A stretch of DNA of 64,000 bases from Patescibacteria group bacterium (GCA_036171455.1 JAVHRB010000091.1:2977-66976), one strand, 5' to 3'. Positions 10,112 to 41,932 are shown, counted from the stretch's first letter. Translations and numbers: made by a program. Notes: generated by a model from the letters alone, not told the origin.

Positions 10112-10128
10112 ATGTGTGTTTGGTAAAA

Positions 10129-12700: not shown

Positions 12701-13438
12701 CTAATCAAATTGCGCCGATTCCCGTATTAGGGCCTTATTCTTCGAGGCTCTCTCCAGATAAATTTTCCATAGCAAGAACCGGACTATCGCTTCTTTGCCG
12801 TTGCCGCGGATGGGTTCGGATTGTAGATACCTCTTCGTCTGAAGGATTTCCTTCTCGGCCTCGCCGGTTCCGAGCCCGCGGGACAAACTATCCAAACGGG
12901 TTTGAATGACCTCCCGAACGTAATCCTCGCCATCCTCGGGCCATATCGGTTCCGCCACGAAGGGAAAGTTTTTCGAGATGAGTTCCTCGGTATACGTCAG
13001 CTTATTGTACGCTTGTGACAATGCACGGGAGTCGCTGCCGGTCGGAGCCGTACGCATTGCCGCGCGAATTCGAATTATCAGCTCGAATTTCTCCCGGTAC
13101 TCGAGCGCCAGTTCCATTCTCGGAAGTGCGGACGCGTGGAATTTCCGGTCGGAAAGGGCCGCGAATAGCCCGGCAATCAGTATGCTGGGGCGTTCGAACA
13201 CGGATTCTTCCACGGAATACGGGAAAACGCCGTATAACCCCTCAAATCCGCTTGATTGTTCTTTACCCTTGCTTTTTGTCGTCGAGACGTTTGAAACACT
13301 GCCATTCGAGGAATTTTGGGTATTCTCACTGGTATCTGCTAGCATTCGCGCGATAACGCCGGCGGTATTTGCGCGACGAGCAAAATAGAGGCTCGCGGCG
13401 GTTCCTCAAAGGATGAGGGATTTCAATAAGGTGTTCAT
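12701..13438 (-). CDS. hypothetical protein with N-terminal hydrophobic segment, 245 aa
   Basis: Fragment 12701..13345 extends through TGA 13406-13408 to ATG 13438-13436. N-terminus MNTLLKSLILGGTAASLYF. Confidence 0.6.
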
Positions 13439-16217: not shown

Positions 16218-16258
16218 CCGACAAAAATCGTACAACTACCTAACCATTGACTACCTCC

Positions 16259-19200: not shown

Positions 19201-19555
19201 CGTCGAAAGCCCGGAGCTTCTCAGAAAACAAGCCGAAACGGCGATACGGCAGGAACTCCAAACGAAGTACGACGCCATGATGAAGGAATACGATAAGCTC
19301 ACCCCCGAAGCGCAACGGGCCATGGAAGCGTGGAGGGAGTCGATGGAACGGCAGGCGAAGGAGCTCGCGGAAGATTTTCAAAACGCGCTCGGAACGAAGC
19401 TCGAGCGGGGGAAGATGGACGGGAAATGGGGGAATCCCGAGTATATGGACAGGATAATGGGGACATTCGCAGAGAAAGCTCCAGAATCCCTAAAGAGCGC
19501 ATTATTGCAGAAAATCCCAGGCGTGAGACGAAAGGAGAATCTTGTTTCAGAATAG
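16259..19555 (+). CDS. large hypothetical protein, 1098 aa
   Basis: Fragments 16247..16906, 17150..17995, 18158..18499 and 18659..19555 are in one frame. The gaps are open apart from seven TGA. ATG 16259, TAG 19553-19555. Ala/Glu/Arg-rich, no domain recognised. Confidence 0.8.
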
Positions 19556-20501: not shown

Positions 20502-21518
20502 ATGAAAAATAAGCCAATTCTCCCTCCAAGGTATGATTCAGAGGCATCTTTGGAGAAAAAAGAATCGAAGCCCCTTTCCGTAAAACAGAAGGCGGTTCGA
20601 TGAGTACTTGTGGCACTGGGAGTGTATTTCGCGGGTGAAATTGTAGCGTCGAAACTAAATGGCGACGGTACCCAGTTTGAAATAACCAAGGATGGAACCA
20701 TGTGCCATCTCGACAGGAAACAGTATGTCGGCAGTCGTATAGTTTGAACGCATCTGAAGGTGAACGAACGCTATTCGTGGAAACTGTGAATCCAGGACGG
20801 AGACCCTATCACATTGGCAAAACATAGCGAATTCCATGAGGTAACAAAGAAATCAAATTTCAATCCCATTACTGGACAACGCTACGGGGGAAACCGTTTC
20901 CGTTCTTCGGATACCGTTACCGATAACGCTAGTACCGGGGCCGTGGTTAATCCAAACAATGCCGTCCTTGAAAAATGCGATATCGAACGCGTGGTAAATT
21001 TTCCTTGGTGCGACAGCGGCATAAACCCTTGGAACCTTTGCATTCTCACGGGGAAGACAAAGACGGAAATGCACAATATTCTTAGGTTGGATAACCTCGA
21101 TATCGATAAGCCTTCCGTATGATGGTGACCAAACCTGGCATGGGTTTTCTCAAAAAACCGAACCTGGGATAAGGAAGTATTGAAAAAGCGCTGAGAATTC
21201 GTATACGAGGCTACCGTACGAGGGGAGTTGTCCCTTGCCGACGTCAAGAACCTGCCTGCCGAATATCAAGATTTGGGCAAGGTCAAATCGTCCATCGTTT
21301 TTTTGAAGAACCAATTCTGGGAACATGCGAACGGTGGCGATATCGGAGACTGGGAGAAAGAGAGGATTGAATTTTACAAGCAGGTGAAGATTCTGACTCC
21401 CGAAGAAGCCGACGGGATGCTCAAGAAGAACGAAGAAGTGCTTCGTAATAAAGTGCATGTCCCCATCCCCAAGGCGTTGCAGGAAGAAATAACGAGGATG
21501 CTCGGAGATACGTTTTAG
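20502..21518 (+). CDS. hypothetical membrane-anchored protein, 338 aa
   Basis: ATG 20502. Same frame as fragments 20814..21122 and 21228..21518. N-terminal TM segment VLVALGVYFAGEIVA. Confidence 0.7.
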
Positions 21519-21692: not shown

Positions 21693-21931
21693 ATATAACG
21701 AAATATGCACGCTAGCAACAAAAAAAGCCTCAAAGGAAGCCTTGGGTTAATATCTGAAGAATGGACTTTTAGCAAGGAACTTCATGCTCAGGCGATAGAA
21801 AAACTTGAATGAATTGAACAGATAAAGCGAGAAGTCTGTTCTTTAAAAATCTTGAGTAAAAAATCATTCTTACGAAAACCGAGTCCTAAATGAGACTCAG
21901 TTTATTGTCATGTATTCCACACTTTCTGCTA

Positions 21932-23920
21932 TTACGGCGTTACTTGAACCACATCGAATCCACCGGTAGTGAGAGTATACATTTCGTTAGGCGTGTGTAT
22001 AAGTGCTTGTAAGCCAATATCACCATAATGCGGATTTCATGACATAAAGTCATTGAAGCTTGGCGTTAGGGTTCCGCCTCTCTCTACGATACGATATATT
22101 TTCCCGTTCTCCGAAAAAGTGAATTTACCATCTGTTGCCTCGACGTACTTCGTTACCACCATTTTGAGCTTGGTAGTAAATTCGTCGTCGGATAGTACAG
22201 TTTCCGGGGTAATTCCAAGACTATTCATGAGTTCATACGGCACTAGAAGGACATATCCTTGTCACTGGTATTTTTTTGCCAGACTCAGGAGTTGTGCGCG
22301 GTAGTACGTATCATACTGGTTTTCGGAAAGGCTTTTCGGATAAGTGTCGGTATTTCGTGCATCTATAAAATCCTTCGGCAGTCCGTACCATACAAAGCCG
22401 TCAGTTTTCCCGACATCCCAAGTGGTATCGTAATATGAATCGGATATTCGAACCCACGCATGTCCATTGTTAATCGTTCCGCCTTTGGAACTTCATACAT
22501 GTCCGCTCATTATGTGCACGTTCTGTATATTTGCATACTCGAGCATGATGGCCAAGAGATGGGCGAATCACCCGCAGACTCCAGAACGCGCCTTGTACGT
22601 CCCGACTCATGCCTCTGCCGAAGAGTTAAAATTGGACAGATAGCTGTAGTCGTAGGAGATGTTGGTAGTAATCCACTTGTAGATTTTTCTCGTCTTTTCG
22701 TCATCGGATGAGGCTCATTGTATCAAGCCGTTCGTCAATGACTTGATTTCCAAAAGCGTTTTTTCGTAGTCTCACAGGGTACCCTGTTGCTTCGATTGCA
22801 CGTAGTAATCGTGGTCTATGCCTTCAGCGTAGTCCAGAATGGAGTATGCGTCTGCGACCGCATAGTAAGGACTTCCGTCTTTCTGGTATTGTGCCACGGC
22901 AATTTTAGCGACGCTTTCGCCCCTAAGGAGCTTGTAGTTAATGAATTTCAACAGGTCGTCCTGCGTCATAGAGTGGGAAAAACTTCCGTCAGCCGAGAGG
23001 ACCTTCCTAATTCCGTTTTCCGTGAACCACCATGGGTCGCGGTTCGAGCTGTCGAAGATATCGAATCCGAGCTCCGCGTACTTTCATACGAGCGTCTTGA
23101 TATCGGATAGCGACGAGACGGTTCATGGATTCCCGCCGGAGGCTGGAGTTTCTCCGCCCACGTCCGTAATGCTGTACCGGTTCGCGTAAAAGTACTTCCC
23201 GCCCGTTTTGTAGATGATGTTCGGCTTGTAGTCCAAATGGTCGAAAATACGGCTCTTTCCGGTTTCGGATATCGCCGAAACGTACTGCGGAAGAAGCTGT
23301 TTCCTCGTCCCGTTCTCCGTGAATCGGAGGGAATCGTCGACCTCTACGTACTTCCCGACAATGGTTTTCAATTCCTCGAATCAAACTTCCCTGCCGGGCA
23401 GTCACACGGTTTGTCCGTTACCCGAAGGGGGTTGTAGTATCGTCTGACTGCCTGTTTGTCCGGCACCCGAAGCGGTTTGCGGCATAGTCTGGCTACCCGT
23501 GGCACTTACTGCCGAAGGCGCCGGTGCTTTGGCCGCAACTTTCCCCTTGGGGACGTTCGCGTCCACGATTACGCCCTGGAATCCCGGAACGGCAGTAACG
23601 GCCGAAGGGGAAACCGCCGTCTTTGCCACGTTCGTTCCCGTTTTGCCATACGAGCTGGCAGATTCGCGCAATCTCGCGTATACGCGCTTGTTTTGGGCGT
23701 TCTTCGCCCTGATTTCGAGCTTCCGATACTTCTCCGCGAGGGATTTGGCTTTGGTGGGATTCCTATCGAGCGTTTTTTTGAGTTGTTTCAACAGGGTTTC
23801 CGTGCGAATCCTCTCCTGTTTGGAAATGTTCGGAACGGCGCTTCAGGCGTATGCGTATCCGGTGATTCCAAGGCTCATGCCGGCGAGCAGTACGAACAGT
23901 ATGATTTTTTTGTAGGTCAT
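21932..23920 (-). CDS. secreted transglutaminase-like cysteine protease-fold protein, 662 aa
   Basis: Fragments 23402..23791, 23123..23371, 22772..22969 and 22037..22243 are in one frame. Signal peptide MTYKKIILFVLLAGMSLGITGYAYA. Cys-His-Asp core: GVCG-[TGA]-FAHL, NNGHAWVRI, YYDTTWD. Three FTENG-type repeats. Confidence 0.85.
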
Positions 23921-23940
23921 GGTAGTAAAGATAGAAAATA

Positions 23941-25014
23941 TTATTTCCCGGCCTTTGCCGGTTTGGCAGTGTCGCTTTCGATGGCTTTCTGTGGCGAAAA
24001 GTCGTTCAGGAACACGATGCGATTCCGGAATATCGTGGCATCCGCTTCCTTGTCGTAGCCCGTAGCGCATTGGACTTCCCTTACGCCGGATTCCCGGAAC
24101 AAATCCTGGTTGTCCACGGGAACGGCCATGTTTTTCTCGTCCTGCCGGTTAAGGTAGCATTTTTTCAGGAATTCCGCAACGTCCGCTTCCTTCACCGATT
24201 CGCCCGGATAATACCAGCGGTATTCGATGGCGTTTTTCGAATACGCAATGCCGTACCCGTTCCTGGCGCGGCCACCGAACAGGTCGGGGTCGAAGTATTG
24301 TTTCACGGAATTGTCCTCCGCTTTCGAGTAGTAATCGGATTTCGCTCACAGCAACCGCTTCGTTTCCGGCGGCACGCGCGTCCCGCTTCAGTATCCGGCG
24401 GAAACGCTCGTGCGGAATCTCGCGAGCAGGTCGAAAGTGCTTTTCGGCCACGTGCCGGGAATTTCTTTTCCGGTCGGTGCATCGTACCCGTATCAGAAAA
24501 CGCCGTTGCCGTCCCGGGACATGGCGCCGTACAGCCGTTCCATCGTCACGTCGGGCGTTTTCGCGGCTTCGGCGTTCCTGTCCCCGGATTCTTTCGGCAG
24601 CTCTCATTCGTTGAAAAAGTACATGACGGTATATCCGGCATCTTCCAACCGGTAATCCGATTCCTTTTGGTTCAGGTATTTTTTGGAATAGGCCGTTATG
24701 GAATCCCGTATGGAAGCGTCTTGGCTTCCGTACGCTATAGCAATGGCTCAGGACCCTCCGGAATAGTACAGGTCGATTCATTTCAGCTTTTCTCCGATGC
24801 CGTCCGCTTCGGTAATCGCCGCCTGGTCCAATCATGCGGAATAAGGGTCGGCGATGCCCCGGAAGAAATTCCCCTTCAGGTCGTCCGACCGTATGACGGC
24901 AAAATTTCACAGACGGTACGCGACTCCTTGGATACCCGAATCCAAGCCCTTGCCACAAGAAGCGAGTACGAGAGGCAATGCGAGCATCAGTGGCAAGAAA
25001 AAATATTTTCGCAT
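23941..25014 (-). CDS. putative lipoprotein, 357 aa
   Basis: ATG 25014-25012. Same frame as fragment 23941..24306, with multiple TGA. Lipobox MRKYFFLPLMLALPLVLASC. Confidence 0.75.
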
Positions 25015-25026
25015 GGTATTTTTCGG

Positions 25027-26598
25027 TTATTTAACTTGGTAGGTGACATTCGTTTTTATCGCAGGCTTGCCGTCTATCATGTAAACGAGTCCGGAATAAA
25101 TATTAGAAGGAAGAATTATCCTGTCGCTCCGGTTTCTGATTTTCAATCCTTTGAACGGGGAAAATTCGACGATGTCAGGGTCGGTGAAGTACGTTACTAT
25201 GTTGTTTTCGTCCGTGCTTCCGGTTGAGTAAAGGATGTTGTTCCGAATGAGGAATTCCCCCCTCTTCGGGCTTAATGGACGATAATCGCTATTGCAGGTA
25301 CCGTTGAAATTCACATACATAGGTGGACATCATCTTTGCACGGGGCCTATGACTATCGTATCAAACGGTTTCTTGTCTTCTTGCAACGTGGAAAAAACGA
25401 TGCGCATCTCTTTTTTATCAGTTTCGTGTTCCAGCAAGTAAAAATCCCCATTTCCCTGTTTTTCCGTTTTCGCGATAGTAAGCAGTTTTTTTCAAATGGC
25501 CTGTCTATTCTTATTGACGTAGTCGGAAACGAGAAGGATATTGTTCATCGAATAAAAGTCGGAGTAGTTGCCGACGGCATAATCATAATCACCACCCAAG
25601 GTGTCTGTTTCATCATATTGTGGTGATATGCTGCTTACTTTGAGCAGGCTTAAAAAAGCCCCCGATGAGTATTTTGGTTTCCCGGGTTTTGGCGTACCAT
25701 ATAGGTTTAGTGCCTTCAAGATTTCGTTGTCGTCATATTCATTTTCCACCGACGGGATGGTACTACGAGAAAATACTCATGCCGAGCCGTTCAGGATGCC
25801 ATACGGCAATAGCCCGTACAATACGACACTGTCGATGCCCCTGCCCGAGAGCGTGAGCGATTCGCTTTTCAATTCCCTCAAATCTATATCCACCGTAGTA
25901 ATTTCGGCATCGGTGATTCCCGTTCCAGTTTTCATGGCGTAGTCGTCCTTTACTGTCGAAAGGAGCTTGTCGTCGTCGTACGAGTATCCGCCGATGCCGA
26001 TTGCGTAATTCGTGGCCTCTTTCACCGTGGTGGCATTTTTTACGGTTCCGAGCGGTACCGTATAGGATTTCCCGTTTTTGCGAATAGTCTTCACCTGCGT
26101 GTCGACGGAGATTCTTTTTACCCCGTCCACTCATTCCCGCTCGATTTTCGAATATCATTTGAACCGGTCTTCCAATACGGTGATGGAAGGTTCGGAAAAA
26201 AACGGCTGTTCGAACTGCGTGTGGACGGTACTGGTAGTGGAATCCTCGTAGGTAACGATTCCGTAAGCCAATCAACACATGGCAACCGCAATGGTTCAGA
26301 ACAGGTACTTCTTGTATTTGGCGTACACGCGATGGGCAGCCATGCCGTTTTCCTTCGTGAAAACCCGGTCCAATACCTTGCTTTTGACGAGGATGGAGAA
26401 TTTCGCGAGCGCTTCCTTCGCGAGGCTTTTGTTCTGCTCGGACAAAACGAATTCAACGGCATATTTGAAACCCCCGAAGGATACCGAGAATGCTTTTTTT
26501 ATCATTCTCGATACCGCCCGGAAAAGCTTGTCGAGAAAATCGTCGTCGTACGGATTGTAGGAATCCAGCGGTTCCTCCCGATTGTTGTTGAGACTCAT
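25027..26598 (-). CDS. hypothetical single-pass membrane protein, 523 aa
   Basis: Fragments 26296..26598, 25777..26130, 25492..25749 and 25027..25320 are in one frame. TM segment F-[TGA]-TIAVAMC-[TGA]-LAYGIV. Confidence 0.75.
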
Positions 26599-26607
26599 AA
26601 GTTGAAA

Positions 26608-27192
26608 TTATTCGGTTATTGCCACATTGACCGCGTTCCTGAGGCTTTCGATGTACTCCCTGTTCTTCGATGCGACTGCTTCTGACTCCGACGCGTTCGT
26701 CGTTACCACCAAGCTGTAGGTTTTGGAGCGTTTGTAGAGGTATCAGAAAACGAGAGCGAATACGACCAGCGCTATGACGACGGTTGAATCCTTTCATTTC
26801 GGCGCAAAATTTCAGCCGAACGGAGCTGCGAGGATGAAAATTACCATGAGGAACCGGAGGAACCTGTTAGAGGTTTTTCTGGCTTCTACCGACGATATAT
26901 TGCTGACCACGAACGTTTTCCTATCGACTATGAGCCGCTTGTTCGTAACGATGATTCTTTCGAGGTTTTTTACCGTGTACTCTTCCGCGCCCTTGGTGAC
27001 GTTGAAGAATTGCTGGTTGAGATTCTCAACGTTGGTAATGTTTTCGGCGTTCTGCGTTTCGATATTCGTGCCGCCGTTTTGGAGCGGTTCGTTTTTTACG
27101 GCCTGCGGGACAGGGGATATTCCACCGGCGACATCCCGATTATCGGGCATCTGTCCTTCTCCCGGGGCGTTCGGATTGATTTGCGTGTCCAT
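26608..27192 (-). CDS. hypothetical 2-TM protein, 194 aa
   Basis: Fragment 26812..27192 extends through three TGA to TAA 26610-26608. Hydrophobic segments FLRFLMVIFILAAPF and VVIALVVFALVF. Confidence 0.7.
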
Positions 27193-27216
27193 TGGTTGGT
27201 ATTGTTATGGGATAAT

Positions 27217-27597
27217 TTACATCAGCAGTACTGCGAGGCTTCCGACTCAGCTTCCTATTTTCACGAGCGACGAAACGCAGGTTCCGAGTCACTCCATCTG
27301 ACCGGTAAACGATTTGAGAAGCTTTCCGTAACTCTGGAACTTGTCCAAAATGGTTCCGCCGGCCGAAACCTCCGTTTTGAGTTCCGTTTCGGCTATTTTC
27401 ATTTGCCGAACTTGTTCGGGAGACAAGCTTCCGCTTTTTACGATATCCCCAGACAGGGTATCTATGGCTGAAATTATCTCTTTCCGTATTCGTTCCGTTT
27501 CCATAGTGAGGTTGAACGTGTTGCCAGAAACTACGTAATTCCCGTTCAGGGTTTCGATATTGCTTATTTGGGAAGCGTTTAATGTGTTGAATTGCAT
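27217..27597 (-). CDS. hypothetical protein with C-terminal hydrophobic tail, 126 aa
   Basis: Fragment 27289..27597 extends through TGA 27289-27291 and 27247-27249 to TAA 27219-27217. Confidence 0.6.
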
Positions 27598-27689
27598 GGG
27601 TTTGATATTTATATGATTTTTTTGCTTTGGTTTAGTTCCGGGCAGGCGATTCCCCGGACTTCACGTCAACCGCCACGGCCGCATCCGTA

Positions 27690-28265
27690 CTATCTCGCTT
27701 TCGCGGCAGAATTATACGCTTCCGCCAACCGCTTCCCGCTTCCGACGGGGTCCTCTGGAGACAGTAGTACGCCCGAAAGGTCGTAACTTCCTCTCCTTTC
27801 CGAATCTCCGGGCGCCATGAACAGGCGGTAGAACTCGTTCACGTCGAACCCGGGAACCCGTTTCCTGAATTCCCCCACGGCCGCGGATACCGCTTTTGCC
27901 AAGGGTTCTGGAACTTCCCGACATGGCCTTTCCGGGGTTTCCACGGTGCCGTCGCCGCAGCCCCGGATTTCGAAAACTCAGAAGCGTTCCTCGAAAAAGT
28001 ACGCTTCTACGGGCGGTGCCGAATTCAACCGCATCCTTTCGGGTTCTGTCGGAGCGGGTTTTTCCCGCATGGCGTCCGAACCCGTGTCCGTTCGCCCGTC
28101 CGTTCCGCCCCGGCTTGTTGAGAAAGGGTTGGGAGAATGTTCCATTACGCTCGCTTTCGGCATCGGCAGTCCCGATTGGGAAAACGAAAGCCAGGCCGCG
28201 ACGGCGAATGACGAGGCTGCCGCCGTGGCGACGAGGCTTTTTTTCGCGAGGTCTTTCCGTTCCAT
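27690..28265 (-). CDS. hypothetical secreted protein, 191 aa
   Basis: Fragments 27978..28265 and 27690..27944 are in one frame. Signal-like N-terminus KKSLVATAAASSFAVAAWLSFS. Confidence 0.65.
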
Positions 28266-28276
28266 GGGACGTTGGG

Positions 28277-29503
28277 TTATTTCAGTTTCCGCACCTTCTC
28301 CGTCTTCTTCGAAAACACGGCGTTCCCATCCTTATCAAGGGACGCTATCGCGTAAAATTCCCTTAAAGCCGGCAAGTTGCTTATGGAATGGAACGAAATG
28401 TACCCGTTCAACATCCCAAGAATCAGTTCCATTTTCTTCATCGCGTAAAAGGATTCATAATCCTTGAAAGTTTTCCGGTACTTCATGTCGTATCCCTTCC
28501 TCTCCGCCTCGTACCCTTCCCGTAAAACGATTACCTTCTTCAGGAACGCGTTCTCGTCCGTGCATCCCGCCCGCATCCCGTCGACGGTCGCCGAGACGTC
28601 CTCAAGGGCCTTCTCGAATCCCTTCCCAGGGAATTTGTCCACCCGCTCTCCCCCGAAGTACCGCATCAGGTAAATCGGCGTGTATTTTTCGTACACGTTT
28701 CTCCCATCGAACGTCAGATTGTCCCCGAAGTCAGTGAACGTGCCGGGGAACCAGTACTTTATCTCCTCGTCGATGTCCCGATATCCCTTCCCGTAGTATT
28801 TCTGCTTGAAGAGCGAGAGGAATATCCCGCGGGCGAGCTCCATCTGGTTCACGAGTATGTCGTATTCGTGGGTTATCCCGGTCGTGGCAAAGGCCTGCGG
28901 CGACTGGTACAGCATCATCGTGTCCCTCACCTTCAGGTAGTCCTTCACGAAATTCAGGTCCCGGGTCCCGTCGGCCTTGCGGTAGCCGGAGAAATCCGAG
29001 TAGGCGAACGTCTCGATGGCCTCGGGGCTGGAACTCTTCTTGAAGAAGCCCTTCGGCGGGTTCTTCGCGTATTCGAGCTTCCAGGAATTCACCGCCGACT
29101 GCCAGTTCCACCCTTTGCTGTACGGTCAAACGAGCCCGTTCTTGTCGTAGAGGAAATCCCCGTTGGCATCCATGGAGAATGCCCCTTTCGGGTTGTACAC
29201 CTTCCATATTTGGTCCTGGACTTCCTTCTGGGCGCGGAGGACGCGGTCGAAGGAGCCATCCTTGATTTCGTCGTTCCGGTACCAGCTCCCGTTCGGGTAT
29301 CCGAAATATACGGACTGGTCGAGTCAGAAGTTGGCGATGAGCCAGTCCACGGCCTTTTTCTGTTCCTTCCCCTTTTTGAACACCGGGGCGTCGTAGAGGT
29401 ATTTCGGGTATTCGGATTTTCGGACGAAGGGGGCGGCGGAAGCCGGTGCCGCGGATAGGCAGAGGAGCGAGAGCACGAGCAGGGCGGAAGCGGTTTTTCT
29501 CAT
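28277..29503 (-). CDS. hypothetical secreted protein, 408 aa
   Basis: Fragment 28277..29092 extends through TGA to ATG 29503-29501. Signal peptide MRKTASALLVLSLLCLSAAPASA. Confidence 0.8.
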
Positions 29504-29542
29504 ATTGAATGGATGATAAATTTATACGATTCTTTAGTATGG

Positions 29543-31006
29543 CTACCGTTTCGGATACGTGATTTTTCCGGTCAGAGCGTCAATGTATACGAGTTCTTTC
29601 GGAATCCTATGTCCCACCATCGGGAAACGTATGGTAAAATTGCCATACCACACGCAATTCTGTTCGTTACATGAGTTAACCTTTGTACTATCCCACTGCC
29701 CGTGATATAGGATGTAGAGGCTTTCAACCTTTTCCGTATCGTTTTTCGACAGTCAGTACAGTTCGAAGTTTTTTGTAATAAACAGCGGTTGTATGTATCT
29801 TGCATCCTTGTCCGTACACGAATCTCCAACATACACCGTCGCGTAATCTCACATTTCGCCTTTGCCGGGAACGAGATTTCGGCACGTGAGAAGGTAATCT
29901 TTTTTTATCGGGGATACTATGGACAGCAAAGTGCCGCCCGATACCGTCCTGGTGGTAAAATCCACCTTGTCCTGGTCATAAAGGGTCCTGAACGCGTAGC
30001 TTCCGCTTTGGGTTTTCGAAATATGCGCGATTTCGTTGAGCGTCGCAGTAGGACTGTTCTTGAGTCGACCTATGACTTTCTCTACCGTTTCGTTGAGCGC
30101 ATCGATTCGTTTCTCCTGTTCGGCTGTAATCTCCGGGCTTTTTTTAAGCTCGGCGACCGCGTCCTTGATTTCGAATGCCGTATCCCGTACCTGCCTTTCC
30201 ATCGTTACGTCCGCTTCCGCGGCGTCCGCGTTCGGTATGGCCGTATTTTTTTGCATAAAGGCGTAAATGGCTTCCAAGCTGTTCTCGAACTTATCAAGCC
30301 GTCCATCTATGGACGAGAGTTCTTTCTGTCCGACCCCATTCGATACGATATGGTTGTTGGAAACGGTAAACGACTGGGTAATGTTTCCCGAGGCGCTCTG
30401 GCCTTGAATGGAAACGCTCCCCTCCATCACTTCCGCTACGGGCTTTTTCGATTCCTGAATACTCCCCTTGGTGACCGAAGCCGCTTCGGGATGCTTGTCG
30501 AAAAACGCATATCAAGCTCACAGCCCAAGGACCAATACTAGCGCCGTGAGAATGTACCGAACGTAGGCGAGCCGGTCCTTGGAATCGTCCGGAAACATAT
30601 CCCTGCCTCACAATATCAGCTTTTCTATGGTTTGCAGTCATGATTTCCATATGGAATCCTTGGTCGGCTCGGAATCTTTCCGTTCCTGATGCCCCGGTTC
30701 GGTTTTCGGGATTTTCCCGTTCGTCTCAACCGGATTAATTTTCGGAAACAGGATTTCGTATTTTTCCTCGCCGACAAAGGATTTGAACCATGTTTCGAGC
30801 ATTTCGGGCGGATGGACCTTCCTTGCTGTCTCCATGATTTCCAGGGTTTCTTTTGGGGTCAATATCCCCGAAGACATGACCCGTTCTTCGAATTTGGACA
30901 GAAGGGATTGTTCGACTGCTTCGGGAACATTCGTTTCCACCAGGCTCGTTTCATCTTGTTCGGTTTCCCCGGTACGTTCCGGGGATTCGGTTATTTGTTG
31001 AGTCAT
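29543..31006 (-). CDS. hypothetical single-pass membrane protein, 487 aa
   Basis: Fragments 30638..31006 and 29849..30430 are in one frame, and the tail continues past TGA 29849-29851 to TAG 29545-29543. Acidic N-terminus, TM segment YILTALVLVLGLGAGYAFF. Confidence 0.75.
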
Positions 31007-31052
31007 ATTCTTTTTTTAAATGGATATGTGTTTTTGTATTTGGCTTCATAAA

Positions 31053-31337
31053 TTAAATGCCCTTCCTTTCGAAAAAGTACTTTTCGAAGGTTATCTTCTG
31101 AACTGTCCGTCAGCGGTCGGGATATACGTAGGCGACCCGCGACCTGAAATCCTGGAATACGGCGTCGCTTTTCCCCAGCAAGGTAGGGTCGACATCGTAC
31201 AGGAATACCGTTTTTGCGTTCCGGACGCTCGGTTTGTCCTTGGATTTGAACAGTTGTGCCAGAATTTGGAATTCGTTGGCATCGCGGTTATCTTCCAAAG
31301 GGCCATTCGATAGAATGACAAGTATGTTGTTAAACAT
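31053..31337 (-). CDS. hypothetical protein, 94 aa
   Basis: ATG 31337-31335 (MFNNILVILSNGPLED) within fragment 31110..31388. A 19-codon tail follows TGA 31110-31112, ending at TAA 31055-31053. Confidence 0.5.
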
Positions 31338-31428
31338 GGTATCGTTATGAATAATGGATAGCTCGCATGGGAAATGGTTTTCTCCCAAGCGGAAATTTCT
31401 AATCGGGCTCCCTTAGGCCGCCCCCTTC

Positions 31429-32103
31429 CTACTTCATGGCGGAAAGGCGTTCCTTTGCGCTCCAATACGAGAAAAAGAGCGGGGCGTATTTCTTGTTCGC
31501 CATCTTCTTCTTCCCCTTGAGCTGTTTCTCGAGGGAAGCCGCCAACGCTTCCAACTTTTTCCTATCGGTCACTTTCGAGACCTTGGCGATGGCTTTCTGG
31601 ACGGAAACGCGGTACGCGGTCATTGCCGGGTATACTTCGAGCGGCCGGAGTTCCCGATTGTCCATGCAACCGTCGATGCAGTTTACGAGCGATTCCCCGC
31701 CGTAGAAACTGCCGTTCGCCGGAGCGAGCCATTCCTTCTTGAGCTTCTTCAATACCACGTCGCCCCCGTGGAGCGAGGTGAAGCTCTTTTCCCACCGGAG
31801 TTCCGGGGAAACGGTCCGAATCGCCATGAAATCCTCCATGATTGCGGAATAGGCAACGAATTTGGAATCGTTCGGAACGCTGTTCTTGATGGCGAGCGTG
31901 AAGACCTCCCGGCCTTCCTCAATAAAATCGTTGGTGAGCATGTCCTTAGTACCAAGCGACCAGGGAGTGGTACCGCTCACGAACTGCGAGAAAGTCTTGG
32001 CGGGAGCCGTTCCCGCGTCCGCGAAAGCGAAGGATGGGGCAAGGCTGGCCGCGAGCATCGCGGCGGATACGAGGCTTCCCAGCAGGTGTTTTTTCTGCGT
32101 CAT
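31429..32103 (-). CDS. hypothetical secreted protein, 224 aa
   Basis: Internal ATG 32103-32101 of ORF 31429..32235 gives signal peptide MTQKKHLLGSLVSAAMLAASLAPSFAFA. No TGA needed. Confidence 0.75.
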   Translation of the reverse strand: MTQKKHLLGSLVSAAMLAASLAPSFAFADAGTAPAKTFSQFVSGTTPWSLGTKDMLTNDFIEEGREVFTLAIKNSVPNDSKFVAYSAIMEDFMAIRTVSPELRWEKSFTSLHGGDVVLKKLKKEWLAPANGSFYGGESLVNCIDGCMDNRELRPLEVYPAMTAYRVSVQKAIAKVSKVTDRKKLEALAASLEKQLKGKKKMANKKYAPLFFSYWSAKERLSAMK

Positions 32104-32173
32104 ACGAAAAAGAAAGGAAATAAAAAAAGCGACTTTTCGGAAGCCGCCGTTATTGAAGTTTTGCAAAACAATA

Positions 32174-32253
32174 CAGGCAGACATCCTCGTTGCCAAACGA
32201 TTAGAAAAGCCGTAGTTCGCATAGAACCCAGACATTCAATGGATGTCTGCCTG
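32174..32253. repeat. 13-bp perfect inverted repeat with 54-nt spacer
   Basis: caggcagacatcc (32174-32186) and ggatgtctgcctg (32241-32253), in the leader/promoter region of the 31429..32103 gene. Confidence 0.6.
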
Positions 32254-32360
32254 GTTTTGTTTCCTATGCGAAATGACCGCGGACGAAAAATCCGCGCATC
32301 GTAAATATTCCCTTCCAATCGTTTGGCTCTGTCAGTATATGCATGTTCCTTGGAAAAAGC

Positions 32361-32393
32361 AAAAATCCGCATCGAACCGAGGATGCGGATTTA
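32361..32393 (-). terminator. rho-independent terminator after the 32416..33141 gene
   Basis: Stem aatccgcatc / gatgcggatt with a 7-8 nt loop. T-run on the minus strand, A-run on the plus strand. Confidence 0.75.
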
Positions 32394-32415
32394 TCAAAGT
32401 ACCCTCCCGTGGCTT

Positions 32416-33141
32416 CTATTGGGGTTCGCAAGAAGGCACTTCGCAAACGAATTTCTGAGCCGCATCGACTCGTTCCAAGTATATCTCCCTTACGATGAAC
32501 ATAGCGACGGCTTCCCGGGCGTTCCGGAATTTTCCAGCCACGAGGTTCGCGTCTATTCCCTCAATCGTCGCCATCACTTCGTCGCTGGTCAATTCGAAGA
32601 ATATCTCTTCGAGCATGGGTCGAACGTATTCCCGGACTTCGTTCTCGGCTTCCCGGGTTCCCACTAGATTGCGAACGAACGGGTATCCCGATTCGAGAAT
32701 GCGTTTGTCCCGAGAGAGCGACTTGTCTTTCCTCTCCAATTTTCGGGAGTATTTTCAAACGGGAGTAAACCTCTGTTCCGATGCGACGTACGCCCGCAGG
32801 ACCAGCGTCTTCTCATATTGGAGGGCGAGCTCCATGCGGTACGGGATATCGTCGTTCCCCCCGGGTCAGGAGAACGAGCCCAGGAGCCGGGCAACGAGAG
32901 TGTTCGGCCGTTCCGACAGGGCATTTTCGACGGAGTAATTGGAAATCCCGTATAACCCCTGGGATTCGCTCACGTACGCGCCCGGCGCATATTCAGTCCC
33001 GGGAGGTTGCAAAACGCTGCCACGGGCCGGATTTCGGTCGTTCCATGGGGTTTCCGGAACAGAATATGCTTCCGCGCGGTACGCATACAGCACGGCGGCA
33101 ATAAAGGCCCATACGAGGACTGCGTTCAAAAATGTTTTCAT
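32416..33141 (-). CDS. hypothetical membrane-anchored/secreted protein, 241 aa
   Basis: Fragments 32866..33141 and 32416..32739 are in one frame, joined across two TGA. N-terminus MKTFLNAVLVWAFIAAVLYAYRAEA. Confidence 0.7.
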
Positions 33142-33208
33142 GTTGGCTTATGGTTAAAGGCTTTCTTCCGCAATCGTCTCTGTCAGGTGTCAATTTCCTC
33201 TACCGTAT

Positions 33209-33994
33209 CTACATCGCCCGTGCACCGTTCGGTTTGCCGAGATTCCCATCAATGCCTTCCGCCGGTTCCTTTTCCGCTTTCCTGACCCCGAACCCTTTCA
33301 GCGCCTTCCTGATACCCGGGTCCTTCACAGATAGCGGCGGGAAGAGCTTGCGGAGGTTCTTCCCGAGTTCCTCGTTTTCTTCCGCGGCACGCTCGTCGAG
33401 GAGTCTCATTTCCCGGGATACCCTCCCTTCTTCCGGTTCCGAAAGAACTTTTCAAAACCCGTCGGACAGGCGCAACATTATGACGTGTCATTTGAACGAG
33501 TAAACCTTCGCGTGTCACGGTTCACATTCCCTTTCCGGAAAAAGGTACTTGAAGCTGAAGTTCCCAAAGATTTTCCCGTCCGTGCCGCAAAGCACGTGAG
33601 CAATCCTCCTCCCTTCACCCGGGATTTTCTCCTTGTGTTCTCGAACTATGACCTTCGCGAAACCGTTCCTGAACGGATGTACGAAAACGACCGCTACCCG
33701 GTTCAACTGCTCTTCGCAAAACCGGAACCGGATGGGGTACCCTCCGTCCGGAGAGAGCCGGAACCCGAACCAATTGCCTTCGCTCCGGACGCGGACGATA
33801 CCGCATGAGTCGACGCAGAAGGTGCCTTCGTCCGCGAAGGGCGCGAGGATGTCCGACCAGGGCTCGTCGTCGTCCAGGAGGGCAAGGTAGAACGGCTCAT
33901 GCCCTTTCTTGTCGAGCTTCCGGACGTGCCAGAGGTAACCGTGTCGCCCGTCCTGGTCGGTCACGGAGACGATGCCTCGTCCGGAGTCGGCCAT
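33209..33994 (-). CDS. hypothetical protein, 261 aa (first gene of the cluster)
   Basis: Fragments 33515..33994 and 33209..33409 are in one frame, joined across TGA 33515-33517, 33488-33490 and 33452-33454. No signal peptide. Confidence 0.7.
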
Positions 33995-34089
33995 GCACCA
34001 GCTTTTGATGTAGTGTCATTTTATCATCCTGTCTGGAATTCAGGAATAGAATCGTTCGTATGCCATGGAATATGAAATTAGGAAATGAG

Positions 34090-34107
34090 CTAGGGAACGT
34101 TCCTTAG
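34090..34107. promoter_or_regulatory. 18-bp near-perfect palindrome (candidate operator)
   Basis: ctagggaac|gttccttag, 8 of 9 arm positions complementary. About 95 nt upstream of the 33994 start codon. Confidence 0.35.
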
Positions 34108-34462
34108 CGGTCATATTATATCCATACTCGTCCGTTTCAGTGCGGACGACCCCATTTTCTTCTATTACACCAACTTGTTTCTACCAACCCGATTTCCGTG
34201 AAAAAAATTCCGCGTGTCTGTGGAAAAGGTTGGGGTATTTTAAAAATTCCATTGTGGCAAAGGGAATCCGCAATTCCGCAATTCCGCCCCTCCGGTTTTT
34301 TCGGGCTCCGTGAGGATTTCACGGGACAGGCGGCTTTTCGGTAAAATAACCTCGCAATCCATTGCCGGTGCCGAAATCCGGGAAAATGCCGTGAAAGCCC
34401 GCGGGGAGCTCGGGAATCCGCCGGTATGAAAAATTATTGTCAATGACCCGGAATATCGTTTT

Positions 34463-34814
34463 TATGACCTTTTCGATACCAATTGACGCAATTATGGCGT
34501 TTTAGGTCATACGTATTAACGATAAATTAACTGTTTTACAATGTACGTTACGAAATGGCTCGATTTCGCATGTTTTCTCATTGGCAAGGCAACCAAACGG
34601 GATTTTTGGCTGGTTTGGCCGGGCGGGTCCGGAAATTTGACAATCCGGGGGTGGGACACGGGGATAGAAGCCATGGGAATCCGACCAGAACGAGCCCATA
34701 ATTTCCCGCGAAAGTGTATTTTTGAAAAAACAAGACCAGTACTGGAACAGTGGGGTTTTAGCGTATGACCTAAAACGACATAATTGCGGTAATTATGATG
34801 GTTTAGGTCATACG
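34463..34814. repeat. two ~50-bp palindromic modules built on CGTATGACCTAAAAC
   Basis: The 15-mer occurs at 34762-34776 (+) and 34499-34513 (-, perfect). A 14-nt copy is at 34801-14 (-), 13 nt of it a perfect inverted match, and a partial copy tatgacct is at 34463-34470 (+). Both modules contain an aattatg core. Confidence 0.8.
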
Positions 34815-34883
34815 TTTTTTCATCGCCCGACATCCCATCGGACCGGGAACCCGAACTCCCGCTTTCCCGTTTCTCCGGACCCC

Positions 34884-34912
34884 CGGAAGGCACGAAAAAT
34901 CCGGGCGGGATA
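34884..34912 (-). terminator. rho-independent terminator after the 35030..35260 gene
   Basis: Stem aatccggg / cccggatt, followed on the minus strand by ttttt. Confidence 0.6.
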
Positions 34913-35029
34913 CCCGGATTCGAGGAGCTTCCCAGCGGTTCGGGACGGGAAGTCCCAATGTCGGAACGCGTGGGAATGCCCGATGGCGGGGAGCGTGACC
35001 GATATCCTCCGCCATCCGATTCCCATTCG

Positions 35030-35260
35030 CTATTTCTTCTTGAAGGTCTCGAAAAACTCCCCGATGTCCATCCCGTCGTAATGGAGGATTTCCCCGCTCT
35101 TCAGGTATACCGCGAGGCTGGACCTCCCGAAAAGCGGGCTTTTGCTTTCGTAACGTATGATATTCTGGTATATGAGCCGGTCTTCTCAGACTTTGAAGGT
35201 CCGGCCCGACGGGGACGGTCCGTTCGAACGGTCGAACATGATTTGGGAAAACTGTGCCAT
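35030..35260 (-). CDS. hypothetical small protein, 76 aa
   Basis: ATG 35260-35258 to TAG 35032-35030 with one TGA (MAQFSQIMFDRSNG...GEFFETFKKK). Not in the ORF track because TGA splits it. Confidence 0.5.
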
Positions 35261-35390
35261 GCTGGGGTTTGATAAAAAAGTATGCCTTTAAGGGATTCGA
35301 AACGGAATCACTTCTACGTTGCATTATATGCGAATTCAACATTCGGGAATAAAATTTCCTCAAGCACACTGGAACGCTGGCTTTTCTCGC

Positions 35391-37534: not shown

Positions 37535-38125
37535 ATGAATTTTGTAGAACCGATTCGCGACGTGAAAAAGATATCGCAAATCAAGAACATGCTTTCCGGG
37601 TCTGGCGACATCCGGACACTATTGATGTTCGAACTCGGTATAAACAGCGCCCTCCGGGCCAGTGACCTTCTCCGGGTCGCGGTCGGCGACGTGTTCGACC
37701 GCGATGGGACCGTTCGGGATTTCTTCGAGATACGGGAGAAGAAAACGGGAAAGCGGGGCAGGATTTCCATTACCCCGAAGGTTCGGGAAACCCTGGGGCT
37801 GTATTGGAAGACATATCCGCATGTGACCGACGTTCCGTCGAATTTCCTGTTCTTCGCGAAAAAGACCTTCCCGCTCGGGAGCAAAGCCATTTGACGGGGT
37901 CGCGCATGGGAAATAATAAGCGATATTTGCGAAGACGTCGGGCTTCAGGGAAAATTCGGCGTACATACGCTAAGGAAATGTTTTGGGTTCCATGCGCGAA
38001 AGAATTCCATTCCGATGGAGCTGATTATGGCCAGATTGAACCATGCGAATTCCGAAGTCACGAAAAGGTACATCTGAATCACAGACGACGAAATCGACGA
38101 GGCATGCCAGAAACTCGATTTGTAG
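37535..38125 (+). CDS. short tyrosine recombinase/integrase (catalytic domain only), 196 aa
   Basis: Fragment 37535..37894 continues through TGA 37892-37894 and one more to TAG 38123-38125. Catalytic residues in order: ALRASDLL (Arg), HTLRK (H-x-x-R), RLNHANSEVTKRYI (His...Tyr). Confidence 0.9.
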
Positions 38126-38145
38126 AAAACCGGGGAAGATTCCCA

Positions 38146-38182
38146 AAAATCCCACCGTATCGTTTACCGGTGGGATTTTTTT
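38146..38182 (+). terminator. rho-independent terminator after the integrase gene
   Basis: Stem atcccaccg / cggtgggat followed by ttttttt. Confidence 0.8.
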
Positions 38183-38453
38183 ATGATTCGGTACCGGAGA
38201 TTGCCGAACCGCGTGGATAGCAGACATAACCAGCGAAATCGAATGTTGTGTCCACCATGAGGGAAGCGGCTTATGGCGATGAAATTTCACTTTCAATACA
38301 GTAATGGATTACCGGGTTAAACCGTACATAAGAGGGATTATGTTTGGTATCGCATTGGTCCGGGAATGCACATGGAATGAAAACTGGATTCCTGGTATTT
38401 TTTTTCGCATACAATTATCGCGAGCATGCTCGCTATTTCCTATTTTCAGCCAC

Positions 38454-38852
38454 ATGGACACAGATTTTCCAATTTCTTGTACCGGGGATGCCGTTACCGG
38501 TGACGCAATCCGGTTTGAAGAAGCTATTTTTGAAGGGAGTTTCCGGAATCCGAAATTCCGGTGAACGAGATTTGTCGAGGGTATTATCAGGAAGGACAGC
38601 TACGGGGCGCTAAAACAGCAGCACACCTTCAGCATCGAGGTAACGTTTTCGGAAGGAATCGAACCCTTGGTTCCCTGAAGCCTCGTGAAGCGAAAATGAC
38701 GAAACGTTTACAGAAACGGGACGTCTCGGAAACCATGGGACAACGAAAACGCGCGAATCCTGGCATGCGGTGAAAAACACATGCGCGGCGTGGAAGCCAG
38801 GGAAATACGCGACTTCCGGAGGTCAGAAGAAGCGGGTGGCTTCACGGATTAA
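38454..38852 (+). CDS. small protein, paralog A of a three-member family, 132 aa
   Basis: ATG 38454, three in-frame TGA, TAA 38850-38852. Shares C-x9-D-x-[IV]-RFEE, E[IV]..S.G.E, P/S-G-[ST], and W[DE]NE with the genes at 39184 and 39910. Confidence 0.7.
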
Positions 38853-39167: not shown

Positions 39168-39183
39168 GGGGAACCTATTCTCA

Positions 39184-41812: not shown

Positions 41813-41932
41813 GTGCCTTTACTTCCTCCCTCCATGGCTTTAAATGGCGATTAAGCCCGATAAGCGGCGATACTCCGCTACAAGCGTTTAGTATGGTTCG
41901 AGCGATAAATTGTTCGGGGAGCCATAGCATAA

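What the first reader, a model, noticed from the sequence alone, without database searches (positions are those of the whole stretch)
21932..33994. 12-kb cluster of twelve co-directional genes, ten predicted exported or membrane-bound, almost all ORFans
After table-25 joining, the minus strand from 33994 to 21932 encodes 12 proteins. Ten have, by eye, a signal peptide, lipobox or TM segment: a signal peptide or N-terminal hydrophobic anchor at 32416, 31429, 28277, 27690 and 21932; a lipobox LASC at 23941; TM segments at 29543, 27217, 26608 and 25027. Only the last gene has a recognisable fold (transglutaminase-like). Terminators at 32361-32393 and a hairpin at about 31065-31090 suggest 2-3 transcription units. 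Code-25 CPR bacteria are thought to live attached to host cells. A dedicated surface/secretome module on a putative mobile element is therefore a good candidate for an undescribed host-interaction or envelope-remodelling system.
Basis: partly seen in the sequence, partly recalled or inferred. Interest (0 to 1): 0.7.

Follow-up and report, generated by a model that had tools for sequence, protein, structure and literature searches.

The report
Orphan exported-protein genes on a mobile island
A real run of twelve genes, mostly for secreted or membrane-anchored proteins found almost nowhere else, sits on a mobile DNA island in an uncultivated UGA=glycine bacterium. Nothing shows that the genes form a conserved machine, so this is an interesting but fairly ordinary island cargo.

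Summary
Under genetic code 25 (UGA=Gly, verified) the minus strand 21932-34114 carries 12 tiled ORFs, each scoring best in its own frame under a codon model. Ten have a signal peptide, lipobox or TM segment, against 6 of 30 elsewhere in the window (p=2.5e-4). Their outside parts carry closely paired cysteines.

Only two proteins match known families: g12 (secreted transglutaminase-like enzyme, Cys-His-Asp intact) and g9 (DUF6232). g3 has no relative among 1.84 billion representative proteins. g2 has only its in-island paralog. g6 belongs to a tiny, strongly constrained secreted family (dN/dS 0.06) seen only on UGA-recoded contigs.

The mobile-element idea is supported. The cluster lies in a ~45-kb, 50%-GC island next to serine recombinases and short direct repeats, and that island assembled as its own contig in another sample.

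The "dedicated host-interaction system" idea is not supported. g6 relatives sit in different neighbourhoods, lacking g7-g12 in one lineage and g4-g5 in another. There is no ATPase, no secretion-system, phage or defence match, and structure prediction failed.

Best reading: island cargo operons that add lineage-specific envelope and secreted proteins to the cell surface. Biochemical role unknown. Moderate-low interest.

The parts
33209..34114 (-). g1, 301 aa (alternative start 33994). No signal peptide or TM; six Cys; repeated 'G-x-a-x-V...G' beta-like motifs seen by eye. Likely cytoplasmic.
   Evidence: ORF and translation. Codon model. No Pfam/NCBIfam/PHROG/PADLOC/PDB hit.
32416..33141 (-). 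g2, 241 aa. N-terminal hydrophobic signal peptide or anchor (..YRAEA|YS) and a C-terminal Cys pair (233, 238). Paralog of 12701-13438(-) in the same island.
   Evidence: Paralogy 29% identity, E=7e-25. A profile search of 5.8e9 proteins found only the paralog.
32363..32392 (-). Strong intrinsic-terminator-like hairpin (11-bp stem plus T run), 24 nt after the g2 stop. It separates the g1-g2 unit from g3. A second hairpin with a T run lies at 32128-32148.
31429..32103 (-). g3, 224 aa. Classical Sec signal peptide (..SFAFA|DAG) and a Cys pair at 142/146. No in-frame TGA. Complete orphan.
   Evidence: Only itself among 1.84e9 representative proteins. A weak (22-24%) g3-like gene lies directly upstream of the distant g6 homologue in L003/L004. 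AF2 pLDDT 47.
31053..31337 (-). g4, 94 aa (111 aa from TTG 31388). No export signal. The least certain gene; a palindromic hairpin at 31066-31090 overlaps its 3' end.
   Evidence: Codon model favours this frame. No homologue or family hit. Sequence.
29543..31006 (-). g5, 487 aa. Bitopic membrane protein: acidic N-terminal about 145 aa, one TM (about 150-170), then a coiled-coil-like outside domain ending in a beta-rich part with two Cys pairs (375/397, 446/451). First gene of the tightly packed g5-g12 run.
   Evidence: No family or PDB hit.
28277..29503 (-). g6, 408 aa. Secreted, mostly helical protein (signal peptide ..PASA|AP). Member of a small family known only from UGA-recoded contigs. 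A 114-nt in-frame deletion allele (28501-28614, between short GGAAGGGAT repeats) exists in other samples.
   Evidence: Five hits in 5.8e9 proteins, 32-61% identity. Alignment. All members have signal peptides; dN/dS 0.064 for L008 vs L009. Deletion allele. AF2 pLDDT 45.
27690..28265 (-). g7, 191 aa. Weakly hydrophobic Ala/Ser-rich N-terminus (possible signal peptide), Pro/Gly-rich linker, Cys pair 103/115. Weakest coding score of the twelve.
   Evidence: No family hits.
27217..27597 (-). g8, 126 aa (155 aa if the start is 27684). C-terminal hydrophobic tail, so a possible tail anchor.
   Evidence: No family hits.
26608..27192 (-). g9, 194 aa. DUF6232 family membrane protein with two TM helices (about 111-130 and 137-156).
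   Evidence: Pfam PF19744, E=3.2e-18, 66.7 bits against a cut-off of 27.4, full profile length matched. Hydropathy.
25027..26598 (-). g10, 523 aa. Bitopic membrane protein: about 95 aa inside, TM about 97-117, about 400-aa outside domain with Cys pair 424/435.
   Evidence: No family, PDB or IMG/VR hit.
23941..25014 (-). g11, 357 aa. Predicted lipoprotein (signal peptide ending in lipobox L-A-S-C20); Cys pair 286/316 in the mature part.
   Evidence: No family or PDB hit.
21932..23920 (-). g12, 662 aa. Secreted (signal peptide ..YAYA|GS) transglutaminase-like (papain-fold) enzyme, with C449/H487/D498 present. Low-complexity Ala/Ser/Gln linker. Three copies of a '[LI]K..VxKY.E....F[TS]ENG' module, two before and one after the core.
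   Evidence: Pfam Transglut_core 4.9e-12 (46.5 bits, cut-off 23) and DUF553 8.4e-9. NCBIfam MAG6410-type TGase lipoprotein 1.2e-8, far below its cut-off. Motifs. Only TGase-core hits elsewhere.
21724..21743 (-). Terminator-like hairpin plus T run between the convergent g12 and 20502-21518(+). Likely end of the g5-g12 unit.
20502..21518 (+). Convergent neighbour, 338 aa, with an N-terminal TM anchor. Its homologue (59% identity) lies directly downstream of the g6 homologue in L008 (a short matching fragment is at the end of L009). This shows that g7-g12 are not part of a conserved core.
12701..13438 (-). Paralog of g2 (245 aa) next to a Toprim-motif (EGxxD, by eye) replication-type protein at 13508-15025. 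Shows that the g2 family is island-specific.

Best explanation
The region is accessory cargo of an integrative genomic island, about 45 kb at GC 0.50. The island sits in a tandem island array beside a tRNA-like 3' end in an Absconditabacteria/Gracilibacteria-group bacterium (host GC 0.38).

Shown:
- Twelve real-looking code-25 genes form about three units: g1-g2, closed by a strong terminator; g3 with or without g4; and g5-g12, eight genes with 9-92-nt spacers.
- Ten products carry Sec-type signal peptides, a lipobox or TM anchors.
- Their predicted outside parts carry closely spaced Cys pairs.
- The last gene encodes a secreted transglutaminase-fold enzyme with its Cys-His-Asp triad intact.

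Inferred mechanism: after the island integrates, these genes are expressed and exported through the host's general Sec and lipoprotein pathways. They add a set of lineage-specific proteins to the cell envelope:
- two bitopic proteins with large outside domains (g5, g10);
- a lipoprotein (g11);
- small membrane proteins (g8, g9);
- soluble secreted proteins (g3, g6, possibly g2 and g7);
- the g12 enzyme, which would cut or cross-link peptide substrates (own surface, cell wall, or the partner cell's surface) outside the cell.

The set looks like an accreted, exchangeable collection of surface genes rather than a fixed multi-protein machine.
For: - Genes and code.
- Export features and their enrichment. 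Cys pairs.
- g12 core and triad. g9 as DUF6232.
- g6 family: secreted, constrained (dN/dS 0.064), and known only from UGA-recoded contigs.
- Variable neighbourhoods of g6 relatives.
- Tight spacing and terminators.
- Island context. GC step. Defence cargo in the same island: type I R-M, AbiJ-like and GmrSD-like genes. Large serine recombinases (left end). A small tyrosine recombinase at 37535-38125. A GGGGAGCCA core at the left end, at 41915-41923 and at 55505-55513.
- The island is a separate 44,893-nt contig in SRR25490533.
- Gene order is identical in at least 13 contigs from one run series.
Against: - No export predictor, expression data or experiment was available, so the topologies are hydropathy-based.
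- g7 and g8 have weak hydrophobic segments, and g4 may not be a gene.
- The tight packing of g5-g12 could equally mean a co-functioning complex.
- Absence of synteny rests on one family (g6) and on short contigs of 2-4.5 kb.
- g1, g5 and g7-g11 were never searched against the large metagenome protein sets.
- The tRNA identity of the left flank is unconfirmed.
Confidence: 0.55

Rival explanations
1. One reading: a coherent, previously undescribed host-interaction or attachment module. g5-g12 would assemble into one surface complex, with membrane anchors g5, g8, g9 and g10, lipoprotein g11, and secreted g6 and g12. The epibiont would use it to bind or breach its partner cell, and the island would move it horizontally.
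For: - Strong enrichment for exported proteins.
- Operon-like packing of g5-g12.
- A secreted transglutaminase-fold enzyme with an intact triad.
- Cultured or observed relatives of the host group are epibionts or predators (PMC8080830; 10.1101/2025.01.22.634366).
- A g6-family member lies next to other secreted proteins on every related contig whose flank is long enough to read: L003, L007, L008, L009.
Against: - No conserved gene order. g6 relatives lack g7-g12 in L008/L009 and g4-g5 in L003/L004.
- g2, g3 and g12 have no orthologues in billions of proteins.
- No energising or assembly component.
- Structure models were uninformative.
- No functional data.
Confidence: 0.17
2. An element-serving function. 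The surface proteins would act for the island itself: entry or surface exclusion against related elements or phages, or a highly divergent DNA-transfer (mating-pore) module.
For: - The island carries defence cargo: type I R-M, AbiJ-like, GmrSD-like.
- Many integrative elements encode exclusion lipoproteins or membrane proteins (established knowledge).
- A Toprim-motif replication-type protein lies nearby (by eye).
Against: - No VirB4, coupling-protein or FtsK-like ATPase. No Walker A motif in any gene-like ORF of the high-GC island part except the match in g12, whose 'SETGKS' is not a P-loop context. HsdR is identified separately as a helicase/ATPase by Pfam ResIII/DEAD.
- No polytopic VirB6-like protein, no relaxase, and no hit in PADLOC, PHROGs or NCBIfam.
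- The Patescibacteria T4SS is defined by VirB4 (10.1101/2025.01.22.634366).
- Twelve kb is large for an exclusion function.
Confidence: 0.1
3. Mostly non-functional sequence: spurious or decaying ORFs in a degrading island.
For: - Orphan status of most products.
- Weak coding score of g7 and doubtful g4.
- An in-frame deletion allele inside g6.
Against: - All 12 frames beat the alternative frames under the island's codon model, while overlapping long ORFs fail.
- The ORFs tile without gaps or frameshifts.
- The g6 family is under strong purifying selection.
- The g12 triad and the g9 full-length DUF6232 match are intact.
- The sequence is 99.9-100% identical across many samples.
Confidence: 0.05

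Closest known systems
Transglutaminase-like (papain-fold) cysteine enzyme superfamily, Pfam PF01841 Transglut_core. Nearest curated model: NCBIfam NF045980, 'MAG6410 family transglutaminase-related lipoprotein' of mycoplasmas.
   Same: g12 matches the core above Pfam's threshold and keeps Cys-His-Asp. Like the mycoplasma proteins, it is exported to the cell surface or medium.
   Different: Only about 100 of 662 residues match. It scores 33.9 bits against a cut-off of 450 for NF045980, so it is not a member of that family. It has a signal peptide rather than a lipobox. It is flanked by three copies of an undescribed module. No orthologue was found.
Genomic islands or integrative elements inserted at tRNA 3' ends, in tandem arrays, by site-specific recombinases and carrying accessory cargo
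   Same: A composition step, recombinase genes at the borders, short direct-repeat cores, defence genes plus surface-protein cargo, and separate assembly of the island as its own contig.
   Different: The host is a code-25 Patescibacterium. The recombinases are large serine recombinases. tRNA identity of the flank was not confirmed. No transfer genes were seen. Excision was not shown, only an alternative junction in two samples.
Patescibacteria / monoderm (MPF-FATA) type IV secretion systems
   Same: A cluster of small membrane and bitopic proteins plus a putative wall-active enzyme, on a mobile element of a CPR bacterium.
   Different: No VirB4, coupling protein, VirB6-like polytopic protein or VirB3. 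No profile hits. The defining features were tested and not met.
Pfam DUF6232 (PF19744) small membrane proteins
   Same: g9 matches over the full profile (1-117 of 117) and has two TM helices.
   Different: The family has no known function. No paper in the searchable library mentions it.

Membership tests
Transglutaminase-like superfamily (PF01841), for g12 | Profile match above the curated gathering score | tested here: met
   46.5 bits against 23, E=4.9e-12, residues 394-494.
Transglutaminase-like superfamily (PF01841), for g12 | Catalytic Cys-His-Asp triad in the order G-x-C-x-x-F-A ... H-A-W-V ... D | tested here: met
   GVC449GGFA, GH487AWV, YYD498. The Gly after the Cys is TGA-encoded.
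Transglutaminase-like superfamily (PF01841), for g12 | Enzymatic activity (protease, transamidase or amidase) and its substrate | not testable with these tools
   Needs purified protein.
NF045980 MAG6410-family TGase-related lipoprotein | Whole-protein score at or above 450 bits, plus a lipobox | tested here: not met
   33.9 bits over 99 residues. The g12 signal peptide ends AYA|G with no Cys.
DUF6232 (PF19744), for g9 | Profile match above the gathering score over the full length | tested here: met
   66.7 bits against 27.4, profile positions 1-117 of 117.
Type IV secretion / conjugation (MPF-FATA, Patescibacteria T4SS) | VirB4-family ATPase encoded in the locus | tested here: not met
   No Pfam or NCBIfam hit in the 12 products. 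No credible Walker A motif in the cluster or in any other gene-like ORF of the high-GC island part. HsdR is a helicase/ATPase by Pfam ResIII/DEAD.
Type IV secretion / conjugation (MPF-FATA, Patescibacteria T4SS) | Coupling protein, polytopic VirB6-like protein, relaxase | tested here: not met
   At most two TM segments per protein. No family hits.
Sec-exported proteins / bacterial lipoproteins | N-terminal n-h-c signal peptide with a small-x-small cleavage site, or a lipobox [LVI][ASTVI][GAS]C | tested here: met
   By hydropathy and by eye for g3, g6, g12 (AxA-type) and g11 (LASC). g2 and g7 are less clear. The signal peptide is conserved in all five g6-family members. No dedicated predictor was available.
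Known anti-phage defence systems (PADLOC) | Any component model matched | tested here: not met
   No hits for the eight cluster proteins scanned (g1, g2, g3, g5, g9-g12; g4, g6, g7, g8 were not scanned). The flanking 4676-6184 matches AbiJ.
Phage or prophage module (PHROGs; INPHARED genomes) | Structural or lysis protein family matches | tested here: not met
   No significant PHROG hit. No tblastn match in 50,697 phage records. No IMG/VR locus for g6 or g10.
Sortase-anchored surface proteins / type IV pilins | C-terminal LPXTG-type sorting signal; N-terminal prepilin motif | tested here: not met
   Regular-expression scan found neither.
tRNA-associated integrative genomic island | Site-specific recombinase at the border | tested here: met
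   41888-43390 matches Resolvase (8e-20) plus Recombinase (1e-12). Its neighbour 43360-44883 looks like a second large serine recombinase by eye. A 596-codon open frame with a weak Resolvase Pfam hit lies at the left end, outside the window.
tRNA-associated integrative genomic island | Direct repeats at the borders, and a composition different from the host | tested here: met
   GGGGAGCCA at the left end (L090), at 41915-41923 and at 55505-55513. A 37-nt identical and 56-nt 93%-identical repeat. GC 0.50 against 0.38. A 9-mer alone is expected about 0.5 times by chance, so the weight lies in its positions.
tRNA-associated integrative genomic island | Insertion in a tRNA gene | tested here: inconclusive
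   The contig ends 45 nt into a sequence with GGTTCGAATCC ... CCA. A truncated Rfam search gave no tRNA match. No tRNA was found inside the window.

The most novel reading that the evidence does not exclude
The g5-g12 operon, possibly with g3 and g6, is a horizontally transferable 'surface kit'. It would be built from protein families unique to UGA=Gly Patescibacteria and assemble into an envelope complex. Its secreted transglutaminase-fold enzyme would modify the partner cell's surface, so acquiring the island would change which hosts the epibiont can attach to or prey on.
Probability: 0.12. Interest if true: 0.75.

Novelty: new member of a known kind. Interest (0 to 1): 0.3.

Why it matters
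Absconditabacteria and Gracilibacteria live on or prey upon other bacteria, and the molecules they use at the contact surface are almost unknown.

This locus gives a concrete, bounded candidate list: 10 exported proteins, including one enzyme with a testable active site and one small conserved secreted family (g6).

It also documents a mobile island, with probable tandem integration, in a code-25 bacterium. If mobile elements shuttle surface proteins between such cells, host range in these episymbionts could evolve by island exchange.

As it stands this is a lead. Orphan membrane-protein clusters on variable islands are common, and nothing here shows a dedicated mechanism.

Tried and rejected
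- **Table-25 proteins refused by two tools.** Exact look-ups were then limited to table-11 fragments and to g3, which has no TGA. Structure prediction states the same restriction, so only P-ids and g3 were submitted.
- **AlphaFold2.** The g6 family (5 sequences) gave pLDDT 45 and g3 alone gave pLDDT 47. Both were too poor for a fold search, so none was run.
- **Large protein searches.** g6 returned 5 hits. The g2+paralog profile found only itself. g3 against 1.84e9 representatives found only itself.
- **Locus searches for the g6 family.** GTDB genomes, JGI metagenomes and IMG/VR gave nothing. A degenerate DNA pattern for the KGYRDIDEE motif recovered only the one JGI contig already known. g10 in IMG/VR gave nothing.
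- **Family libraries.** Pfam at E up to 10, NCBIfam, PHROGs and PADLOC gave nothing beyond g9 and g12.
- **PDB sequence searches.** g1, g5, g10, g11, g12 and the Toprim-motif protein gave nothing significant. A SidJ match at E=0.05 was judged chance.
- **Phage and plasmid genomes.** tblastn of the concatenated cluster found no match in phages and only TGase cores in plasmids.
- **A diversity-generating retroelement at the recurrent assembly break in g6.** No template-like repeat was found in the window. The break is a 114-nt in-frame deletion allele.
- **Earlier impression that 34-39 kb is non-coding.** Withdrawn. A sliding codon model shows plus-strand genes from about 35.5 kb, including a tyrosine recombinase.
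- **Literature.** Nothing on the accessions, on DUF6232, or on comparable clusters.

Full report
**1. What is in the sequence**

The window has two composition zones: about 0.50 GC from 1 to about 41.8 kb, and about 0.38 GC beyond. Treating TGA as sense nearly doubles long-ORF coverage.

UGA=Gly, rather than Trp or stop, is supported directly:
- The seven TGA codons of the host arginyl-tRNA synthetase (56879-58771) mostly fall on conserved Gly in 80 homologues. At the HIGH motif, 71 have G and 8 have a stop.
- TGA sits at the canonical Gly of the HsdM motifs (CCA-G-TGG, NPPY-G), in an HsdR motif (QT-G-FD) that appears canonical by eye, and in the g12 catalytic motif.
- In the g6 family, a JGI protein translated with table 4 carries W exactly where its relatives have G.

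ArgRS is 45-51% identical to MAGs labelled Absconditabacteria, SR1, Gracilibacteria or Peribacteria. That places the host in the code-25 Patescibacteria (code background: PMC8080830).

**2. The twelve genes**

Twelve minus-strand ORFs tile 21932-34114. A codon model trained on the island's restriction-modification genes scores each of the twelve best in its own frame. It rejects the competing long ORFs on other frames. g7 is the weakest. g4 is short and has no homologue.

Spacers are 9-92 nt from g5 to g12. There are 312 nt between g2 and g3, containing a strong terminator at 32363-32392 and a second hairpin with a T run. There are 422 nt between g3 and g5, partly filled by g4. Overall, terminator-like sites are no more frequent than in shuffles. 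About three transcription units is therefore reasonable but not proven.

**3. Export**

By hydropathy and inspection:
- g3, g6 and g12 have classical signal peptides.
- g11 has a lipobox (LASC).
- g2 and g7 have N-terminal hydrophobic segments; g7's is weak.
- g5 and g10 are bitopic with large C-terminal outside domains.
- g9 has two TMs.
- g8 has a hydrophobic C-terminal tail.
- g1 and g4 have none.

The same criterion flags 6 of 30 other genes in the window, against 10 of 12 here (Fisher p=2.5e-4).

As independent support, the predicted outside parts of g2, g3, g5 (twice), g7, g10 and g11 contain closely spaced Cys pairs. Mature g12 has only its catalytic Cys. No LPXTG or prepilin motifs are present. 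No dedicated predictor was available.

**4. Homology**

Only two proteins match known families:
- g12: Transglut_core, 4.9e-12, with C449/H487/D498 present.
- g9: DUF6232, 3.2e-18.

NCBIfam's nearest model for g12 is a mycoplasma TGase-related lipoprotein, matched far below its cut-off.

PHROGs, PADLOC, NCBIfam and permissive Pfam gave nothing else. PDB sequence searches and the phage and plasmid genomes also gave nothing beyond TGase cores.

In the large protein sets:
- g3 has no relative among 1.84 billion representatives.
- g2 has only its paralog at 12701-13438.
- g12 has no orthologue.
- g6 has four relatives at 32-61% identity.

All relatives of g6 keep a signal peptide. All come from contigs whose genes need TGA read as sense, with GC from 0.28 to 0.45. 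The family is under strong purifying selection: dN/dS is 0.064 for the one unsaturated pair. AlphaFold2 models of the g6 family and of g3 were of low confidence.

**5. Synteny**

The cluster is 99.9-100% identical, with the same gene order, in an NCBI MAG (GCA_036170835.1) and in contigs from many runs of one series (SRR254905xx).

More distant relatives of g6 sit in other contexts:
- In L008 and L009, a PD40-repeat protein lies upstream. A homologue of window gene 20502-21518 lies directly downstream and convergent, so g7-g12 are missing.
- In L003 and L004, a weak g3-like gene is directly upstream, so g4 and g5 are missing. A small membrane-anchored protein follows.

So g6, perhaps together with a g3-like partner, is the only element with demonstrated conservation. 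The twelve-gene block is not a conserved unit as far as the data reach.

**6. Context: a mobile island**

The high-GC part carries:
- type I R-M genes, an AbiJ-like gene (4e-26) and a GmrSD-type gene;
- a protein with a Toprim-like EGxxD motif, seen by eye;
- a 1,102-aa protein of unknown function;
- the cluster itself;
- an intact small tyrosine recombinase at 37535-38125.

It assembled as a separate 44,893-nt contig in SRR25490533, spanning window -2950 to 41942.

The left end of that contig has a large serine recombinase. It then runs into a sequence that looks like a tRNA 3' end...GGTTCGAATCCGCCCCGGGGAGCCA. This was not confirmed by Rfam on the 45-nt stub.

The core GGGGAGCCA recurs at 41915-41923, inside the 3' end of the first of two serine recombinase genes, exactly at the GC step. 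It recurs again at 55505-55513, after a type III R-M system, where the following sequence resembles the tRNA-downstream sequence at the left end.

Two other samples show the left end of the island joined to the sequence that lies just inside the 55.5-kb repeat. This could be a circle, or the islands in the other order.

The simplest reading is two islands in tandem at one attachment site. Island A is about 45 kb at GC 0.50 and holds the cluster. Island B is about 13.6 kb at GC 0.37.

**7. Interpretation**

The best-supported view is island cargo, expressed in about three units, that adds lineage-specific envelope and secreted proteins to the cell through the general export pathways. The secreted papain-fold enzyme (g12) is the only component with a predictable chemistry.

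A coherent host-interaction machine remains possible. The operon-like packing and the lifestyle of the group argue for it. It has no positive support from conservation, components or structure.

A transfer apparatus is unlikely. There is no VirB4, coupling ATPase or polytopic channel protein, and those define the Patescibacteria T4SS (10.1101/2025.01.22.634366).

Non-functional ORFs are unlikely given the coding statistics and the g6 constraint.

**8. Verdict**

- Observation: confirmed.
- Interpretation: partly supported.
- Novelty: the protein families are new. The kind of thing, surface-protein cargo on an integrative island, is known.
- Interest: about 0.3.

Noticed in passing
window 41915-41923 and 55505-55520; L090 15690-15737; L092 and L093 ends: The core GGGGAGCCA marks three junctions: next to a tRNA-like 3' end left of the window, at the GC step inside the 3' end of a serine recombinase gene, and after the type III R-M system. 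This suggests two islands in tandem at one attachment site. Two samples carry an alternative junction (a circle, or the reversed island order).
   Followed up: partly
window 28501-28614 (inside g6): A 114-nt (38-codon) in-frame deletion allele, between short GGAAGGGAT repeats, exists in other samples (L098). It explains why many contigs break here and why the NCBI scaffold has a 100-N gap. No template-like repeat was found in the window, so there is no sign of a diversity-generating retroelement.
   Followed up: yes
window 39527-39682 and 41641-41808: Direct repeats in blocks of 39-88 nt, 84-88% identical, bracket about 2.1 kb holding a NADAR / phage gp30.3-like gene (40509-41090, Pfam 1.5e-11). 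The second copy ends at the GC step. This may be a nested insertion or a duplicated attachment region.
   Followed up: no
window 34115-35300: About 1.2 kb upstream of g1 has no coding signal. It contains an imperfect inverted repeat (34463-34513 / 34762-34812; 51 nt, 80% complementary). It is a possible divergent regulatory region between the cluster and the plus-strand genes that start at about 35.3-35.7 kb.
   Followed up: no
window 37535-38125 (+): An intact 196-aa tyrosine recombinase-like gene (HTLR...Y motifs by eye; weak Phage_integrase Pfam hit in the Logan annotation) lies inside island A, in addition to the serine recombinases.
   Followed up: partly
window 37983-38852, 39121-39516, 39847-40230 (+): Three paralogous small genes of unknown function (31-40% identity).
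   Followed up: no
window 492-12261: A defence-gene arm of island A: type I R-M (HsdR, HsdS, HsdM), an AbiJ-like gene at 4676-6184 (PADLOC 4e-26), a GmrSD/DUF262-type gene at 8231-10303, and a multi-TM protein at 7181-8218. The HsdR-HsdS spacer (3730-5997) is replaced by other sequence in samples L092 and L094.
   Followed up: partly
window 56879-58771 (-): The host ArgRS is of archaeal type. After the Absconditabacteria/Gracilibacteria-group MAGs, and one MAG labelled Woesearchaeota as the top hit, the next relatives are DPANN and Thermoproteota archaea at 28-38% identity.
   Followed up: no
window 16247-19555 (+): A 1,102-aa protein with a central hydrophobic stretch (about residues 570-760) has no Pfam or PHROG match (NCBIfam and PDB not searched). 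It lies between the Toprim-motif gene and the cluster. Together with the membrane-anchored 20502-21518 product, it may belong to the same surface theme.
   Followed up: no
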